The translations under genes and the position numbers were made by a program. Of a stretch of 64,000 nt of DNA, positions 52,012 through 61,882 are shown one piece after another. The notes below the pieces were generated by a model, which had not been told where the DNA came from, did no database searches, and saw only the letters and a program-made list of their open reading frames with translations. Source of the DNA: a virus (Duplodnaviria > Heunggongvirae > Uroviricota > Caudoviricetes); IMG/VR virus record IMGVR_UViG_3300042885_000900. One strand, 5' to 3'. Each line of letters starts with the position of its first letter. Positions within the stretch are counted from its first letter, which is position 1.

Positions 52012-54279
52012 TTAGGGAATACAGGTGTTTGATTTTACGAAGGTACCTGTAGATAAAGTATATGTAAAAAATCCAACACAATCAGTACCTGAACACGTAG
52101 CATTCGATATTAATATTGTAGAATCAGCAAATGTATAAGTCGTCCCTATTTGTGTACCTCCGGAAGTTATAAAACCATAATTACCATCACTAATCATTGT
52201 TCCACCAGAATAAGCTTTCATTTGTATTTGAACAATGCCCGTACCTGTATTTGGAGTGTTTCTATACCAATTCGCTCGACAATTTAACTGTATTGAGGTA
52301 ACACTTCCACTAAGTTTTAATTGTTTAATATCTACATACACACTTTCGGAACCACCCGTATTTTGATTATCACCACCCCACCATAAATTAGGACCAACAC
52401 GTTTACCTGACGCCAGATTTCCAGTAGTACAAAACCCAACTGGGTTAAAAGTATTCGCATATGTTGTCCCCGTCACATTATTCACATATAAATAAGTAAG
52501 AGTGTCTAAATCTTTCCCACTAGTAATTGGGAATGTATATGTAAAAACAAGATAATCAGCATTAAGTATTATCGGAGCCTTTGTTGGCGTAACCGTTGGC
52601 GTATATGTTGGTGTAGGTGTTTGAGTTGGTGTTTTAGTCGGTGTAAGCGTTTGTGTTGGTGTTTGTGATGGTGGGAGCACATCTTTAATTAAACGAACTG
52701 AAAAACCAACTGTTTTATTAGTATTAATTCTACTAACACTTTGACTACTATTACTCATCTGACGACTCCACGAACTAACAGTATTAGCCGATGATGAAGT
52801 CCACCAATACCCACCATTACGAATGTCAGTAAATACCCCGCTAATACTTCTATTACCTCCTGGAAGAGCAGTAAAACCATAAGTGTTAACAGCACCCGTA
52901 TTTGGAGTGTTCCAATATGTGGTACCAGTTCCTTTCAATATTCCCCCTGATACCGATTCACCACCTAAAAAAGTTGTTAAAGTAGTCCATTCAGCATCTG
53001 TAGGAATATGATAACCTAACGGAGCTAATCCACCATTTGCGGTATTATTAACCGCATACCAATTATATAACATACCATAAGTATTTCCTGTTGTTGTACT
53101 ACCGCTGTAATAACACCAAGCCCCCGTGGTTAATCCTGACCAAATAGCCGGGTCAGTCACTTTTGGAATTACAGTACCATCTCTATAAGTAGGAACATTT
53201 AAATTACACGCCGTCCAAGTTTGAGTTCCAATTGTCACATCATTTAATGAACAAAGATATGGTGAGGGTGCATTTAAATTAGTCGTTAAACAACTAGGAA
53301 CTTGAGACGCACCAGCAATTGTTTTATTAATTTCTGTAACATATACTAAATTGTATGGCGAATTTTTATTAATTATATATAATTTTGTATTTATACCATC
53401 AAGATTAACCGATGTTATGTAAATATTTCCATTCGACTCAAAAATACCATAAGTATTACAAGGAATTGTTAGAACAACATCAACTTCTAAAGTCCCTGTT
53501 AAATAATTCCACTGACTTAAATAACAAATCTCATTAACAGGGTCATTATTAAGTACCAAAAATTTATTAGTTGTTGTTTTATAAAAATCACCAGTAATAG
53601 TTCTACCAGCCGTTAAAGGAAATTTAGTTGTCATAACAGGACTTACACCTGATACATCTATTTCAACAACTTCGTTAGGATTATTGAGTGTATTTACCGC
53701 TAAAATAACTGTGTCCGAAATCGCCGCAAGACCCGCAGAATTACTAAAATTTAATGGAGAGGGGATATTACGATTAAATATCGCACTAAATGATGGTAAA
53801 GTTATATTATATTCGTTAAAACTAATACCAGTTGGTTCCCAAAGTTTATTTGAGGTATGAGCAATATCATTACCTCCAGAATATTCCGCCGGCATTGTTA
53901 ATAATGTTGAAGTGTTTGCAGAAACATTATAATAATAAACTTTATCTTGATTATCATTATATAGTACAGCACAAGTCGGTACAACAGGATTACTCGTTGG
54001 TGTTGGTGTTTTTGTCGGTGTTATACTTGGCGTTGGAGTTTGAGTTTTAGTGATTGTTGGTGTTGGTGTTTGAGTTGGTGTAACTGTTGGAGTTAATGTT
54101 TTTGTTGGTGTAACTGTTGGAGTTTGCGATGGCGATGCATTTGGTGTTTGAGTTGGTGTTGGGGTACCGATTGGTAATAAAACACCATTAATTCTAATGG
54201 TGTTTGGTATAGGATTATTGTTGGCTTTTTTCATAGAAGCCAATAATACATTATCAAATTTTTTAAGTAATTGTGCCAT
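52012..54279 (-). CDS. Fibre/receptor-binding-like protein with two Pro/Thr linkers, a beta-rich middle region shared with 59423..61882, and an internal Fibrobacter succinogenes major paralogous (FISUMP) domain
   Basis: PT linkers (TPTQTPTPTITKTQTPTPS...). FISUMP motifs GMLYNWYA, GYHIPTDAEWTTL, GFTALPGG, GFSVRLIKD. Confidence 0.75.
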   Translation of the reverse strand: MAQLLKKFDNVLLASMKKANNNPIPNTIRINGVLLPIGTPTPTQTPNASPSQTPTVTPTKTLTPTVTPTQTPTPTITKTQTPTPSITPTKTPTPTSNPVVPTCAVLYNDNQDKVYYYNVSANTSTLLTMPAEYSGGNDIAHTSNKLWEPTGISFNEYNITLPSFSAIFNRNIPSPLNFSNSAGLAAISDTVILAVNTLNNPNEVVEIDVSGVSPVMTTKFPLTAGRTITGDFYKTTTNKFLVLNNDPVNEICYLSQWNYLTGTLEVDVVLTIPCNTYGIFESNGNIYITSVNLDGINTKLYIINKNSPYNLVYVTEINKTIAGASQVPSCLTTNLNAPSPYLCSLNDVTIGTQTWTACNLNVPTYRDGTVIPKVTDPAIWSGLTTGAWCYYSGSTTTGNTYGMLYNWYAVNNTANGGLAPLGYHIPTDAEWTTLTTFLGGESVSGGILKGTGTTYWNTPNTGAVNTYGFTALPGGNRSISGVFTDIRNGGYWWTSSSANTVSSWSRQMSNSSQSVSRINTNKTVGFSVRLIKDVLPPSQTPTQTLTPTKTPTQTPTPTYTPTVTPTKAPIILNADYLVFTYTFPITSGKDLDTLTYLYVNNVTGTTYANTFNPVGFCTTGNLASGKRVGPNLWWGGDNQNTGGSESVYVDIKQLKLSGSVTSIQLNCRANWYRNTPNTGTGIVQIQMKAYSGGTMISDGNYGFITSGGTQIGTTYTFADSTILISNATCSGTDCVGFFTYTLSTGTFVKSNTCIP

Positions 54280-54290
54280 TTTATTTAGAT

Positions 54291-57200
54291 TTACAGTACC
54301 TCAACCCAACTATTATCCGGACAGAAATATATTATGTCGTTTGTTGCGTCAGTACAATAACCAATGATTCTAACATTATTACCAGTAGCCGGTGGTGATG
54401 TCGAACTAAACTCACCCGCAGTTGTTGATACATATAATATAGAACCTAAAGTCACACTAGTAAATGATGTTGTACTAAATTTAGCATAACCTCTTAACAA
54501 CATTCCACTCGCAATTGTTGTCCCTAACGCCATACCTAATAATCCTGTTGACCCAGAAACTGTTGTAGCATTTGCCAATGTCCAAGTACCTCCAGTACTA
54601 TAATAATAAACTGACCCGGCAGTTAATGTTGCTCCAATACCAAAATAAACAACTTCTCCGGCACCACCATTAGATGTTGGAACTGTAAATATTTTATTGT
54701 TTGTAATATTAATATTATTGACAAATGTTGTACACCCTCTATCTGCAGTAATGTTAGAACCTACAATAGTTGCAAAAGTAATACCTGATGGTATTCGATT
54801 ACTACTACCACCAAGAATTGACGAAAAACAACTTCCTATACAGTTATTATAACCACCCGCAATAGTTGACCAATTACCATATATACGATTCGACACTCCA
54901 CCTGCAATAGTTGAATAACTTCCCACAATTTTTTGAAATTCAGGATTACCATTAACATAAGTAAATCCACCACCACCAATTGTTGAACAATTTCCACTAA
55001 CAGAAACATAACATCCACCACCAATGGTTGAAGCATTACCGGAAACCCTATTAAAACGACCTCCACTAACTGTTGAATAAGTAGCACCTAATAAAATCTC
55101 ATTACCACAACCACCACCAATAAATGAATCATTCCCTCTAGCGGTATTACCTTGACCACCCCCGATTGTCGCAAAACTTCCAGAAGCAGTATTACTATAA
55201 CCATACCACCCACCACACTGGAAGCGTTGACCACCCCCTCCAATAGTTGAAGCCATCCCTGACGCTTTGTTATAACCACCTCCACCAATTGTTGAGGTAC
55301 TACCGGAAGCAATGTTTCCACCACCACCACCTACTGTTGAAACATAATTAGACACTGTGTTGATTCTACCTCCACCAATGGTTGAATAGTTACCCGTCGC
55401 ACAGTTTTTACATCCACCACCAATTGTTGAATTTACACCATAAGCAGTATTTCCAACACCACCACCAATAAATGAATTACTTCCACCAAAACTAGATTTT
55501 GTTAGATTTCTAACTAATGGTTGATTTCCAATTGCAAACACATCAACCGAAGCTGTTGCTCCGGTAACATTTACTGTGGTGAATCCTGCGGAGTAAGTTG
55601 ATGCCGTTACCACAACATTTCTTGAACAAGTATTATTATCAAAAGTTAATAATAAATCATTAGTTACAAAACAACTAGTTAAATTACCAGTAAACCTTAA
55701 CGAACAATTACCAAGGACTGTAGATGTTTCTATTTTTGGAGAATTACCCACCATATTTAAAACACCTCCGTTAATACCTCCTTGATACCCACAGACAATA
55801 TTCACATGACCACCACCTACAAAAGCAAATTTGGTAGCCGATTTATTATTATTACCTGAAACTATCCCTGAACCATAACCTGTTGCGTAATTACCACAAC
55901 CACCTAAAATAGCCGCTCTAATACCATTGGTCTTATTAGAAAGACCACCACCAATAACAGCATCTTCATGAACTGTTATATTATTACATCTACCACCACC
56001 TATAAACGATGCCGCACTTGTATTACAATTGTAAGAACCTCCAACAACAACTGATTGATTTGAAGACACTGTATTACTAAGTCCACCTCCGAGAAATCCA
56101 CCACCTGAACCACAACTAAGAATCTTACCACAATATCCACCGGCAATTGTTGTTGCAACACCATAGTTTCTATTACAATTTCCTCCACCAACTACAGAAC
56201 AGTTACTTCCTGAACTTACACAATTATTTTTCCCACCACCAATTGTTGAATAAGTACCAATAGCATTATTACATCGACCCCCACTAACTGTTGAAATAAA
56301 ACCAAAAGCAGTATTTGTAAAACCACCACCAATGAATGAACGATTACCAGAAGCAGTATTACCTTGACCACCACCAATAAACGATTGTTCACTTATATTA
56401 CAATTGTATTGACCTCCAACAATAACTGAACTATATGAAGATACTGTATTACAATAACCACCACCTATAAACCCACCTACTCCATTACAATTAAGTATAC
56501 TATTAGTATTACCACCGGCGATAGTTGATGAGTGACCATAATTTTTATTTTGGTATCCACCACCAACAACAGAATATTCTTTTTTTATACAGTTTAATTT
56601 ACCTCCACCGATAAATGAATTGTTATTATTATCAATAATGTTGGAACAACCACCACCTATGGTTCCATAAGATGTAGTGACACCACTTATTATATTACAT
56701 TTACCACCACTGATGGTTGAACTACAATGGTATTGACCAAAAATTTTATTAGAAAGACCACCACCAATAACTGAATTTTGTATTTGACGACCATATATAG
56801 TATTTGATAACCCACCACCTATAGTATTGTCATATAAATAACCATTATTACCACTATTAGATAGACCCATTTTGTTTAAATGACCACCACTTATAGTATT
56901 ACGACCACCTATATACAAAATATTAGACAACATTGTATTATCACTACCACCACCAATAAAAGATTCACAATTTGAACTTATAGTATTCGAACAACCACCG
57001 CCAATAAATGAACGACTAGCACCTGATAAAATATTATTACAACCACCCACGATTGTTCCATGAGGAGATAAAATATCTACTATATTAAGTTGACCACCTA
57101 AAGATGCTGAACAATTTCCATTTGATTGATTACTAACACCACATCTAACCGATGAGTATGTACCTACACCTAATACGATTACCGGAGGTGTTGGGCTAAA

Positions 57201-59081
57201 ACCACTCGTTCCTGATGAACCTGCCGCACCTGTTGCTCCCGATGTTCCTGACGAACCACTAGTACCTGATGTACCTCTTGTTCCTGAAGAACCACTAGTT
57301 CCTGAAGAACCACTTGTTCCTGAAGAACCACTTGTTCCGGATGTACCTCTTGTTCCCGATGTACCACTAGAACCATTTGCACCCGATGTTCCACTAGAAC
57401 CTGTTGCTCCCGATGTTCCTGACGAACCACTAGTACCTGATGTACCTCTTGTTCCTGACGAACCACTTGTTCCGGATGTACCTCTTGTTCCCGATGTACC
57501 ACTAGAACCATTTGCACCCGATGTTCCACTAGAACCATTTGCACCCGATGTTCCACTAGAACCCGTCGCTCCCGATGTTCCTGACGAACCACTTGTTCCG
57601 GATGTACCTCTTGTTCCTGAAGAACCACTTGTTCCGGATGTACCTCTTGTTCCCGATGTACCACTAGAACCATTTGCTCCCGATGTTCCACTAGAACCCG
57701 TCGCTCCCGATGTTCCTGATGAACCACTTGTTCCCGAAGAACCACTAACCCCACTAGCACCAGATGTCCCTGACGAACCACTAGTACCTGAAGTACCTCT
57801 CGTTCCTGAAGTTCCACTAGAACCACTAACACCACTAGTCCCCGAAGACCCACTATTTCCACTAGTACCTGAAGTTCCTCTCGTTCCTGAAGTCCCACTA
57901 GAACCACTAATACCACTTGTTCCTGAAGAACCACTACCACCAGTGCTTCCGGATGTTGTAACCAATAAACCATTAGAACCCACACACACCAAACATCCTG
58001 ATGAACTAGTGAAACTACATACAGATAAATCATTAACAAATGTGGTACATGCTCTGTTTGCGGTTATATTACTACCAATAATATTGGTATGTGTAAATGA
58101 GGAAGATATTGTATTACCTATACCACCTAATATTGATGAACAATTACCATTTGCACAATTACAACAACCTCCACCAATTACAGAATAACAACTGGTTATA
58201 GTATTTAGATAACCACCACCAATTGATGAATAAGATGCACTAATACAAAGTTTATTACCATAACCACCCGATATAGTTCCTAGTCCAGATAAAACACGAT
58301 TAGAATAACCACCACCAATGAATGACCTAGTACCTGAAACTATATTATCATGACCTCCGCCAATAAATGAGGAAGATACTAACTCACAAATTATATTAGA
58401 TAAACCACCACCAATTGATGAGGTAGTTCCTGATACGCGATTACTAAAACCACCACCAATAAATGAAAAACATTCTGATACGGTATTTCCACTACCTCCT
58501 AATGCTGCCGAAAAATTTCCTGATGCGGTATTTCCAACACCACATCTAACAGATGAGTTAATACCACCACCTAATATTATTACCGGAGGATTAGGACTTG
58601 TTCCACTAGTACCAGCCGAACCCGTTATACCTGAAGACCCCGATGAACCATTAATTCCACTAGTACCTGAAGAACCACCGGCACCTGATGTCCCCGATGT
58701 CCCTGATGTCCCACTATTACCCGATGTTCCTGATGTTCCCGATGTCCCACTATCACCTGATGAACCACTAGGTCCTGAAGTACCATTAACACCTGAAGTA
58801 CCATTAGCACCTGAAGTACCATTAGCACCAGATGTTCCCGATGTACCATTAATAAAACCTGTTATTGTAACTATACCACCCGTTGAGTCGTATAGTTCCA
58901 ATGTTGTTGCAGCAGAGAAATAAGTTCCTCCTGTAATATATGGGAATATATTTAATACTTGACCTATTTCGGCCTTATATGATGACCCTTGAGGACTTTG
59001 CGTCGTATCATAAGGTTTAACAATATGTATTAAGTCATTAACAGTTACGCCAGTCGCTAAAAGTCTATCGGTTAATCTCAT
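54291..59081 (-). CDS. Giant fibre-like protein, 1596 aa. It has collagen-like G-X-Y tracts, long beta-helix-like IGGGxxN repeats (about 14-aa period) and a C-terminal globular domain.
   Basis: GTSGTSGSSGTRGTSG... tracts, and more than 50 copies of S(F/I)IGGG(x)xN. Confidence 0.8.
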   Translation of the reverse strand: MRLTDRLLATGVTVNDLIHIVKPYDTTQSPQGSSYKAEIGQVLNIFPYITGGTYFSAATTLELYDSTGGIVTITGFINGTSGTSGANGTSGANGTSGVNGTSGPSGSSGDSGTSGTSGTSGNSGTSGTSGTSGAGGSSGTSGINGSSGSSGITGSAGTSGTSPNPPVIILGGGINSSVRCGVGNTASGNFSAALGGSGNTVSECFSFIGGGFSNRVSGTTSSIGGGLSNIICELVSSSFIGGGHDNIVSGTRSFIGGGYSNRVLSGLGTISGGYGNKLCISASYSSIGGGYLNTITSCYSVIGGGCCNCANGNCSSILGGIGNTISSSFTHTNIIGSNITANRACTTFVNDLSVCSFTSSSGCLVCVGSNGLLVTTSGSTGGSGSSGTSGISGSSGTSGTRGTSGTSGNSGSSGTSGVSGSSGTSGTRGTSGTSGSSGTSGASGVSGSSGTSGSSGTSGATGSSGTSGANGSSGTSGTRGTSGTSGSSGTRGTSGTSGSSGTSGATGSSGTSGANGSSGTSGANGSSGTSGTRGTSGTSGSSGTRGTSGTSGSSGTSGATGSSGTSGANGSSGTSGTRGTSGTSGSSGTSGSSGTSGSSGTRGTSGTSGSSGTSGATGAAGSSGTSGFSPTPPVIVLGVGTYSSVRCGVSNQSNGNCSASLGGQLNIVDILSPHGTIVGGCNNILSGASRSFIGGGCSNTISSNCESFIGGGSDNTMLSNILYIGGRNTISGGHLNKMGLSNSGNNGYLYDNTIGGGLSNTIYGRQIQNSVIGGGLSNKIFGQYHCSSTISGGKCNIISGVTTSYGTIGGGCSNIIDNNNNSFIGGGKLNCIKKEYSVVGGGYQNKNYGHSSTIAGGNTNSILNCNGVGGFIGGGYCNTVSSYSSVIVGGQYNCNISEQSFIGGGQGNTASGNRSFIGGGFTNTAFGFISTVSGGRCNNAIGTYSTIGGGKNNCVSSGSNCSVVGGGNCNRNYGVATTIAGGYCGKILSCGSGGGFLGGGLSNTVSSNQSVVVGGSYNCNTSAASFIGGGRCNNITVHEDAVIGGGLSNKTNGIRAAILGGCGNYATGYGSGIVSGNNNKSATKFAFVGGGHVNIVCGYQGGINGGVLNMVGNSPKIETSTVLGNCSLRFTGNLTSCFVTNDLLLTFDNNTCSRNVVVTASTYSAGFTTVNVTGATASVDVFAIGNQPLVRNLTKSSFGGSNSFIGGGVGNTAYGVNSTIGGGCKNCATGNYSTIGGGRINTVSNYVSTVGGGGGNIASGSTSTIGGGGYNKASGMASTIGGGGQRFQCGGWYGYSNTASGSFATIGGGQGNTARGNDSFIGGGCGNEILLGATYSTVSGGRFNRVSGNASTIGGGCYVSVSGNCSTIGGGGFTYVNGNPEFQKIVGSYSTIAGGVSNRIYGNWSTIAGGYNNCIGSCFSSILGGSSNRIPSGITFATIVGSNITADRGCTTFVNNINITNNKIFTVPTSNGGAGEVVYFGIGATLTAGSVYYYSTGGTWTLANATTVSGSTGLLGMALGTTIASGMLLRGYAKFSTTSFTSVTLGSILYVSTTAGEFSSTSPPATGNNVRIIGYCTDATNDIIYFCPDNSWVEVL
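57180..57960 (-). repeat. Collagen-like G-X-Y (GTSGSSGTRG...) coding tandem repeats, about 230 residues
   Basis: Near-perfect 18- and 27-nt tandem repeats are visible in the DNA. A second shorter tract lies at 58600-58862. Confidence 0.7.
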
Positions 59082-59113
59082 TTTTTAAATAATATTTATA
59101 TGTGATAAATAGT

Positions 59114-59419
59114 TTAATTTTGGAAATCGTACAAGATATTATCCATAAATTCAAAATCTACCAAATCTTGGAATTCCTTACCGGATACAGTAACAACACA
59201 AGAATAGATTTTAAACTCCTCACAACCATCTGAAGTAATTAATTTAATACCCAATGAAGGAGCATTATCAAATTGCGGTGGTAAAAATATATTTACATAC
59301 GGAGAAGGAGGTACGTTAATGATTGACACCAAAATGCATTGGTTTCCGTATATATCACAAGCATAAACTGTGTATGGAGGATTTAACCCTGATACTGAAT
59401 ATATCGCAACTGCTTTCAT
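59114..59419 (-). CDS. Hypothetical small protein. Possibly a fibre accessory or chaperone, judged only from its position.
   Basis: ORF track. Confidence 0.4.
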   Translation of the reverse strand: MKAVAIYSVSGLNPPYTVYACDIYGNQCILVSIINVPPSPYVNIFLPPQFDNAPSLGIKLITSDGCEEFKIYSCVVTVSGKEFQDLVDFEFMDNILYDFQN

Positions 59420-59422
59420 CTA

Positions 59423-61882
59423 TTAATCTTTTATTAATCTTACTGAGAAACCATATATTTTATTGTAACCATATCTATTAGCAACACTGGTATTAGCAGC
59501 CAAATATAGAAGCCAAGCAAAATCACTATCAACTTCTGTTGAACTCCAAAACCCACCATTGTTTCTAATATTATTAAATCCTCCAAAGTTTGAACGCCAA
59601 CCTCCAGGTAATCCTGTAAAACCGCTAGAGTTAGAGGCTCCTGTATTGGGACTTAACCAGTGTACTGTACCTGTTTCTTTTAATTTACCACCCGCAACAC
59701 TATTTCCACCTAAATAAGTGGTTAAAGTTGTCCATTCTGTATCAGTTGGAATGTGATATCCTGATGGTGCCAATTGTTTTCTTTGACCTACATCAGTTTT
59801 TGAGGCCTCATTCCAAATTCCCATCACAGCATACCAATTATATAACTTACCATATGTGTCTCCCGTTGTTGTACTACCGCTGTAATAACACCAAGCACCT
59901 GTTGTTAATGTCGCCCACTGGCTTGTTCCTGTGATTTGTGGAATTAATGTACCATCTCTATAAGTAGGAACATTTAAATTACACGCCGCCCAAGTTTGAG
60001 TTCCAATTGTTACATCATTCAATGAACAAAGATATGATGAGGAAACATTTAAATTAGTTAATAAACAACTAGGTATTTGAGACGCTCCTGAAATAACTTT
60101 TGAAACACTATTAACAGATGTTATATTATATGGATAATTTTTACCAATCATATATAGATTTGTGGTTATACCATCAAGGTTAACCGATGTTATATAGATA
60201 TTACCACTATCCTCGAAAATACCATATGTCGCACAACTATTATTCGGTAATAATAATTCAACATCAACTTCTAAAGTTCCTGTTAAATAATTCCATTGAC
60301 TTAAATAACATTTATCAGTAAAAGCATCAGTATTAAGTACCAAAAATTTATAAGCGAGTGTTCTATAAAAATCTCCAGTGATATATCTACCAACTATTAA
60401 AGGAAATTTAGTTGTCATAACAGGACTTACACCTGATATATCTATTTCAACAACTTCGTTAGGGCTATTAAAAGTATTTACCGCTAAAATAACTGTGTCC
60501 GAAATCGCCGCAAGACCCGCAGAATTACTAAAATTTAATGGAGAGGGGATATTACGATTAAATATCGCACTAAATGATGGTAAAGTTATATTATATTCGT
60601 TAAAACTAAGACCAATTGGTTCCCAAAGTTTATTTGAGGTATGAGCAATATCATTACCACCAGAATATTCTGCAGGCATTGTTAATAATGTTGAAGTATT
60701 TGTCGAAACATTATATGACCAAACTTTATCTTGATTATCATTATATATTACAGCACAAGTCGCTATAACAGGACAAGATTCAATATCAGTAAAATTAATT
60801 ATTGAATCAATAACTCCCAAAGTGGTATGAACAACATATCTACCAGGATATGTATATCCAGGTGTTGGTCCTAAATCAGTATCTAAAATAAATTTAGTCG
60901 TTCCAAGATATATCGTGTTATTAAAATTATATAATTGAACCCCAATACCAATATTTACAAATGTTTTAAAATTAAAACCATTTGGGTCACCATTTAAATT
61001 CACATAATAACTTTCCCATAAACATTTAGCCTCGTAATCCGTTGTTGAATTATTAATATTATGGGTTGTCTCATTTTGAGTAACAGATGTTGAAAAATAA
61101 GTATATATCGATGGTGTTGCCGGTTTTGTTGATGAAGGTGTCATTGTCATTGTTGGAGTCATCGTCATTGTTGGAGTTATTGTAGGTGTTTGAGTTGGAG
61201 TTTGGGAAGGTGACGCACCAGGTGTTGAGGTCATAGTAGGTGTTATAGTAGGTGTAGGTGTCATGGTAGGAGTTTGAGTTGGCGTTGGAGTTTTAGATAC
61301 TTCGGCAGGGTCAGTTAAAGTACATACCGTTATTGCCGTATAATCAAGCCAAAAATCTGTTGTTGTTGCCGTATATAACCCGGCAGGTAAATTCTGAATT
61401 GCCGGTGATATACTACCTTTATTATCTACACCCCCATTCCACCATACAGTTTTATACGGTGGTGTACCACCACTTATTGTAACCGACGCCTTACCATCAA
61501 TAGCTCCAGGGTATGATGGGTCTCTTGTATCATTTGGATTACAAGCAACCCCCATTGGGAAAATGGTTATTACATTACATTCATTTGATAGAGTATATGC
61601 TGTTATTACTGGTGATGGCGGAGGAAAACAACTAACGGAGTCATCACTACCAATACAAGTAACACAATCATCATAGTTTGTTAATATCGCATCACTTCCA
61701 TTATATATTTTTGAATTACTTGGGATAGGTTCATCAATCACATATCCACAAGCACTAAATTCAGGTGTTATTATAGAATAAACCTGATTAAGATTAGGTG
61801 TATCACCAACATAATTACTTAACCCAAAATAATTATCTGAATTATTAGATTTAGTACAACAAGTTTGAAAATAATAAGTCAT
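59423..61882 (-). CDS. Fibre/receptor-binding-like protein with a PT linker and a C-terminal FISUMP domain. Its C-terminal 445 aa are paralogous to the middle of 52012..54279.
   Basis: GKLYNWYA ... GYHIPTDTEWTTL ... GFTGLPGG ... GFSVRLIKD. Confidence 0.75.
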   Translation of the reverse strand: MTYYFQTCCTKSNNSDNYFGLSNYVGDTPNLNQVYSIITPEFSACGYVIDEPIPSNSKIYNGSDAILTNYDDCVTCIGSDDSVSCFPPPSPVITAYTLSNECNVITIFPMGVACNPNDTRDPSYPGAIDGKASVTISGGTPPYKTVWWNGGVDNKGSISPAIQNLPAGLYTATTTDFWLDYTAITVCTLTDPAEVSKTPTPTQTPTMTPTPTITPTMTSTPGASPSQTPTQTPTITPTMTMTPTMTMTPSSTKPATPSIYTYFSTSVTQNETTHNINNSTTDYEAKCLWESYYVNLNGDPNGFNFKTFVNIGIGVQLYNFNNTIYLGTTKFILDTDLGPTPGYTYPGRYVVHTTLGVIDSIINFTDIESCPVIATCAVIYNDNQDKVWSYNVSTNTSTLLTMPAEYSGGNDIAHTSNKLWEPIGLSFNEYNITLPSFSAIFNRNIPSPLNFSNSAGLAAISDTVILAVNTFNSPNEVVEIDISGVSPVMTTKFPLIVGRYITGDFYRTLAYKFLVLNTDAFTDKCYLSQWNYLTGTLEVDVELLLPNNSCATYGIFEDSGNIYITSVNLDGITTNLYMIGKNYPYNITSVNSVSKVISGASQIPSCLLTNLNVSSSYLCSLNDVTIGTQTWAACNLNVPTYRDGTLIPQITGTSQWATLTTGAWCYYSGSTTTGDTYGKLYNWYAVMGIWNEASKTDVGQRKQLAPSGYHIPTDTEWTTLTTYLGGNSVAGGKLKETGTVHWLSPNTGASNSSGFTGLPGGWRSNFGGFNNIRNNGGFWSSTEVDSDFAWLLYLAANTSVANRYGYNKIYGFSVRLIKD

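What the first reader, a model, noticed from the sequence alone, without database searches (positions are those of the whole stretch)
52681..60016. Fibrobacter succinogenes major paralogous (FISUMP) domains in two fibre proteins.
The segments 52681-53247 (internal in 52012-54279) and 59426-60016 (C-terminal in 59423-61882) carry the hallmark motifs of the TIGR02145/FISUMP domain. These are TIGTQTW..CNLN, G(K/M)LYNWYA, GYHIPTD(A/T)EWTTL, GG.LK.TG, GF(T)(A/G)LPGG, FWSS and GFSVR(L)IKD. The domain is known from cell-surface proteins of Fibrobacter and Bacteroidota. Its use as the distal domain of phage fibres is not something I know to be described, and it would imply glycan or surface binding on a Bacteroidota-type host. 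In the 755-aa protein the domain is followed by a second PT linker and a further 185-aa C-terminal domain, so FISUMP sits in the middle of the protein.
Basis: partly seen in the sequence, partly recalled or inferred. Interest (0 to 1): 0.65.

Follow-up and report, generated by a model that had tools for sequence, protein, structure and literature searches.

The report
Lectin-fold adhesin modules of a jumbo phage
Two paralogous proteins of a large freshwater phage really do carry the FISUMP domain, a C-type-lectin-fold binding module, most likely to grip the host surface. This use is already annotated in uncultured phages, so it is a sound but fairly ordinary find.

Summary
ORF A (52012-54279, minus strand, 755 aa) and ORF B (59423-61882, minus strand, 819 aa) each hold one full-length FISUMP domain at the stated coordinates (Pfam PF09603 E 3e-38 and 1e-38; TIGR02145 90 bits against a cut-off of 41.65).

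The domain models at pLDDT 95 as a C-type-lectin fold of the type seen in TvpA, Mtd and Lcl-C. A and B share a 450-aa module: a beta-propeller-like domain followed by FISUMP. They flank a 1596-aa collagen and UspA1-head-like fibre protein. The replicon is a phage of at least 313 kb.

Orthologues keep a 35-aa N-terminus and shuffle modules joined by PT-rich linkers. Amino-acid replacements concentrate in the last ~50 residues of FISUMP, the segment that retroelements (DGRs) diversify in related proteins. I found no template repeat, reverse transcriptase or population variation here.

The most likely role is virion adhesin or receptor-binding protein. The novelty claim is overstated. FISUMP is a published DGR target in Bacteroides phages and is annotated in uncultured Caudovirales and Microcystis phage Mel-JY01. 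It also occurs in at least 425 IMG/VR stretches, usually C-terminal and within structural modules. A Bacteroidota host is plausible but unproven.

The parts
59423..61882 (-). ORF B, 819 aa. Order of parts: N-domain, PT/M-rich linker, middle domain, beta-propeller-like domain, C-terminal FISUMP.
   Evidence: The identical protein sits on 14 metagenome contigs.
61298..61882 (-). B N-terminal Cys-rich domain (aa 1-195), the proposed virion anchor. It contains a sub-threshold SprB-like repeat (aa 129-150).
   Evidence: 86% identical in the 208-kb relative L017, whereas the downstream modules differ. SprB scores E 0.002, 18 bits, below the cut-off of 28.
61109..61297 (-). B linker rich in Pro, Thr and Met (aa 196-258).
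   Evidence: Translation and the repeat family D4.
60779..61108 (-). B middle domain (aa 259-368), no family match.
   Evidence: No Pfam or PHROG hit. Conserved in the L017 orthologue.
60050..60778 (-). B beta-propeller-like domain (aa 369-611), shared with A.
   Evidence: The AF2 model is all-beta with four-stranded blades at pLDDT about 65-80. Foldseek matches Kelch and designed six-bladed propellers at E 1e-7, target-normalised TM 0.56. Sequence homologues occur only in this phage lineage.
59426..60031 (-). B FISUMP domain (aa 618-819), C-type-lectin fold.
59459..59599 (-). B segment (aa 762-808) aligned with the replacement hot spot of A. This is the equivalent of a DGR variable region.
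   Evidence: A versus B here: 30% amino-acid identity and dN/dS 0.88, against 0.22 in the rest of the domain.
59114..59419 (-). 101-aa ORF between B and the collagen-like gene. It is a stand-alone small module.
   Evidence: 87% identical in L017. 37% identical (E 8e-10) to the N-terminal domain of P0131, a protein that ends with the C-dom family.
54291..59081 (-). 1596-aa fibre-like protein with collagen triple-helix repeats, Gly-rich 15-residue repeats like the UspA1 head, and a conserved tip.
   Evidence: Pfam Collagen E 2e-37. PHROG tail-fibre families. PDB collagen and UspA1 3pr7 at E 6e-17. Length varies: 1479, 1596 and 2459 aa in relatives.
52012..54279 (-). ORF A, 755 aa. Order of parts: N-terminal adaptor, PT linker, beta-propeller-like domain, FISUMP, PT linker, C-terminal domain.
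   Evidence: The exact protein occurs on a contig of 312,799 bp.
54169..54279 (-). A N-terminal ~37 aa, conserved adaptor (MAQLLKKFDNVLLASMKKANNN...).
   Evidence: 69-100% identical in eleven proteins: seven near-identical copies of A or its recombinant P0001, and four (P0004, P0124, P0125, P0126) whose downstream modules differ.
53995..54168 (-). A PT linker 1 (aa 38-95).
   Evidence: Translation and repeat family D4.
53275..53994 (-). A beta-propeller-like domain (aa 96-335).
   Evidence: 80% identical to the B copy, with dS only 0.27 and runs of 100% nucleotide identity, which suggests gene conversion.
52681..53256 (-). A FISUMP domain (aa 342-533), internal.
52714..52854 (-). A replacement hot spot (aa 476-522), the equivalent of a DGR variable region and the putative ligand-binding patch.
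   Evidence: Over aa 472-524, A versus its L012 orthologue has 18 non-synonymous codons out of 53. The preceding 130 codons have 6. The segment is invariant within the 90% cluster.
52579..52680 (-). A PT linker 2 (aa 534-567).
   Evidence: Translation.
52015..52578 (-). A C-terminal domain (aa 568-755), a distinct and mostly C-terminal module family.
   Evidence: phrog_24956 E 6e-15. 299 representative clusters, usually at the protein C-terminus, one in a GpJ/Phage-tail_3 protein. Weak tblastn hits to S-SSM7, XacN1 and crAssphage gp62 'putative tail protein'.

Best explanation
A and B are paralogous, modular adhesins (receptor-binding or accessory binding proteins) of a freshwater jumbo phage of at least 313 kb.

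Each is a string of globular ligand-binding modules joined by extended Pro/Thr linkers. It is probably held on the virion by a conserved N-terminal piece: ~37 aa in A and 195 aa in B. It may sit together with the giant collagen/UspA1-like trimeric fibre encoded between them.

The FISUMP module is a C-type-lectin-fold domain. Its conserved scaffold presents a ~50-residue C-terminal patch, the same patch that DGRs mutate in related proteins, which contacts a host-surface ligand, probably a glycan. Specificity here changes by ordinary substitution in that patch and by swapping whole modules between paralogues and strains, not by a retroelement.

Shown: domain identity, fold, paralogy, module shuffling, the hot spot, and the absence of DGR parts in the window. 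Inferred: virion location, N-terminal anchoring, the nature of the ligand and the host.
For: Domain identity: HMM hits far above the curated cut-offs.

Paralogy: the 450-aa module is 71% identical between A and B.

Hot spot: dN/dS is 0.88 in aa 476-522 against 0.22 in the rest of FISUMP. The A orthologue shows 18 of 53 non-synonymous codons there against 6 of 130 upstream.

Module shuffling behind a conserved N-terminus:
- P0001 is the A N-terminus joined to the B-type propeller and FISUMP.
- P0124 lacks FISUMP.
- P0125 and P0126 have two FISUMPs.
- The L017 orthologue of B lacks the propeller, although flanking genes are 80-99% identical.

Neighbouring gene: a collagen plus UspA1-head-like fibre protein.

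C-terminal domain of A: its family occurs in a GpJ-like tail protein and weakly in the crAssphage tail module.

Viral context: in 93 FISUMP ORFs from 79 IMG/VR loci the domain is C-terminal in 74. Neighbours in 11 of the loci match virion-structural, tail, tail-fibre, portal and terminase PHROGs.

Export signals: by inspection, neither N-terminus has a hydrophobic signal or a lipobox Cys. Bacterial FISUMP proteins are described as lipoproteins (PMC5758913).

Phage nature: dense small ORFs including DUF3310, Acb1 and ParB_N genes, a relative in IMG/VR, and no tRNA genes.
Against: No experiment or proteome places A or B in the virion.

No other recognisable structural gene lies within the 64-kb window. 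The cluster sits among metabolic and unknown genes.

A and B have no predicted trimerising shaft. Nothing links them physically to the collagen-like protein.

The propeller model is only of moderate confidence (pLDDT 65.9 overall).

The ligand and the host are unknown. The hot spot could reflect relaxed constraint rather than selection, since dN/dS stays below 1.
Confidence: 0.6

Rival explanations
1. The FISUMP domains are targets of a DGR encoded elsewhere in the genome of at least 313 kb. Adenine-specific mutagenic retrohoming from a distant template repeat would rewrite the last ~50 residues.
For: FISUMP/DUF1566 are known CLec-type DGR targets, including remote targets in Bacteroides phages (reading PMC8143477). 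The fold matches TvpA, Mtd and TaqVP. The divergence sits exactly in the equivalent of the variable region, with many NNT-to-NNT codon changes and 18 of 22 first- and second-position differences involving an A.
Against: There is no third copy or template repeat in the window, and none in the further flanking DNA that I searched. No reverse-transcriptase Pfam family appears in the gene tables that cover the window and about 8 kb beyond it.

The segment is identical in all seven members of the 90% cluster of A, drawn from at least 10 contigs. B is identical on 14 contigs from several samples.

The adenine bias is not significant against the background: 18 of 22 versus 70 of 108, Fisher p = 0.14. 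A and B also differ at synonymous sites throughout.

None of the 79 closest IMG/VR FISUMP loci has a template-like copy outside the FISUMP ORFs within 10 kb.
Confidence: 0.07
2. A and B are virion decorations. They stick particles to non-host material such as polysaccharide particles, algal or plant debris, or mucus-like layers. This would raise encounter rates rather than recognise the infection receptor.
For: The family is named after a cellulose degrader and is expanded in polysaccharide-degrading FCB bacteria. The multi-module design on PT linkers resembles carbohydrate-binding-module architectures; a PT-linker hit to a glycosidase appears. There is no baseplate or tail context in the window.
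Against: Strain-level module swapping and a replacement hot spot are what host-range determinants show. In IMG/VR the FISUMP ORFs lie next to tail and tail-fibre genes.
Confidence: 0.15
3. A and B are not virion proteins. They would be made during infection to act on or at the host envelope, for example in superinfection exclusion or remodelling of surface glycans.
For: The cluster lies among non-structural genes, next to thioredoxin and glutaredoxin genes.
Against: By inspection there is no signal peptide, lipobox or C-terminal type IX secretion sorting domain (only FISUMP in Pfam). The adjacent gene is a 1596-aa collagen-like fibre. The C-terminal domain family occurs in tail proteins.
Confidence: 0.05

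Closest known systems
DGR variable proteins with a C-type-lectin fold: Bordetella phage BPP-1 Mtd, Treponema TvpA, Legionella LdtA, and the 'CLec2' DUF1566/Fib_succ_major targets of Bacteroides uniformis 'Bacuni' phages
   Different: No template repeat, reverse transcriptase, significant adenine bias or population hypervariability was found here. Variation arises by ordinary substitution and module exchange.
Legionella pneumophila collagen-like adhesin Lcl (collagen repeats plus an Lcl-C/DUF1566 head, PDB 8q4e)
   Different: Here the stalk (54291-59081) and the CLec heads (A and B) are separate polypeptides. The FISUMP domain is larger, at about 190 aa against 131. Glycosaminoglycan binding by Lcl is stated from memory and was not tested here.
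FISUMP proteins of Bacteroidota and Fibrobacter (TIGR02145 / PF09603)
   Same: Full-length domain at 50-60% identity to copies in freshwater Flavobacterium and Bacteroidota MAGs. Tandem or multi-copy use is also common.
   Different: The phage proteins have no lipoprotein signal. The partner modules are specific to the phage lineage: the propeller, the C-dom and the 37-aa adaptor.
FISUMP-annotated proteins of uncultured Caudovirales (UniProt A0A6J5LVS1, A0A6J5N676) and of Microcystis phage Mel-JY01 (WWT39497.1)
   Same: Same domain in phage proteins. A0A6J5LVS1 is 46% identical with TM 0.84. Mel-JY01 is 39% identical.
   Different: These entries are annotated only; no function has been studied. 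Their architectures differ from A and B.
Bdellovibrio mosaic adhesive trimer fibres (Bd2740 C-terminal domain, PDB 8oks)
   Different: That is a bacterial predator, not a phage. Its S74 chaperone-protease architecture is absent here.

Membership tests
FISUMP (TIGR02145 / Pfam PF09603 Fib_succ_major) | HMM score above the curated cut-off over the whole model | tested here: met
   PF09603: 132.3 and 133.8 bits against 33.9, model positions 1-187 of 187. TIGR02145: 90.2 bits against 41.65.
FISUMP (TIGR02145 / Pfam PF09603 Fib_succ_major) | N-terminal lipoprotein signal, which is typical of the bacterial members | tested here: not met
   By inspection of the N-termini MAQLLKKFDNVLLASMKK... and MTYYFQTCCTKSNNSD... 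there is no hydrophobic core and no lipobox. This feature is typical of the family, not defining, and no signal-prediction program was run.
FISUMP (TIGR02145 / Pfam PF09603 Fib_succ_major) | Conserved motifs and conserved Cys residues of the domain | tested here: met
   IGTQTW, CNLN, GAWCYY, YGxLYNWYA, GYHxPTxxEW, LPGG and GFSVR are conserved across 58 sequences.
C-type-lectin fold, FGE / DGR-variable-protein subtype | Three-dimensional fold | tested here: met
DGR target gene | A template repeat cognate to the variable region | tested here: not met
   Sensitive blastn and a degenerate pattern find only the two FISUMP genes. About 250 kb of the genome was not available.
DGR target gene | A reverse transcriptase gene in the element | tested here: inconclusive
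   No RT family appears in the precomputed Pfam tables that cover the window and flanks. A regular-expression scan was negative but had no positive control. The rest of the genome was not seen.
DGR target gene | Adenine-specific substitutions and hypervariability within the population | tested here: not met
   Adenine involvement is 18 of 22 against a background of 70 of 108, p = 0.14. The segment is invariant in 7 cluster members and on 14 contigs.
Phage tail fibre / receptor-binding protein | Conserved N-terminal anchor with exchangeable distal modules | tested here: met
Phage tail fibre / receptor-binding protein | Location in a structural or tail gene module | tested here: inconclusive
   The only structural-type neighbour is the collagen-like fibre ORF. 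FISUMP ORFs in other viral contigs do lie in structural modules.
Phage tail fibre / receptor-binding protein | Presence in the virion and binding to the host receptor | not testable with these tools
   This needs virion proteomics and adsorption assays.
SprB repeat (PF13573, Bacteroidota gliding adhesin) | HMM score above the gathering threshold | tested here: not met
   B aa 129-150 score 18.2 bits against 28, E 0.002. This is a resemblance only.

The most novel reading that the evidence does not exclude
A widespread family of freshwater jumbo phages carries a 'construction kit' of PT-linked binding modules: FISUMP, a lineage-specific beta-propeller, the C-dom and the orf101-type domain. The modules hang on a 35-aa universal adaptor. 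Specificity of the C-type-lectin patch is retuned without any retroelement, by recombination between paralogues and strains. One virion would then display several lectin specificities beside a giant collagen/UspA1-like fibre. This would be a DGR-independent route to the same hypervariable binding surface.
Probability: 0.4. Interest if true: 0.45.

Novelty: new member of a known kind. Interest (0 to 1): 0.3.

Why it matters
The result gives a confident functional label, a lectin-fold adhesin, to two large ORFs of an abundant and uncultured freshwater jumbo phage. It also marks a 47-residue patch as the probable specificity determinant.

FISUMP domains prove to be common in the structural modules of uncultured phages, yet they have no family in PHROGs. 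Annotation pipelines for phage receptor-binding proteins will therefore miss them.

It does not open a new kind of mechanism. C-type-lectin-fold tips on phage binding proteins are textbook (Mtd), and FISUMP on phages is already annotated.

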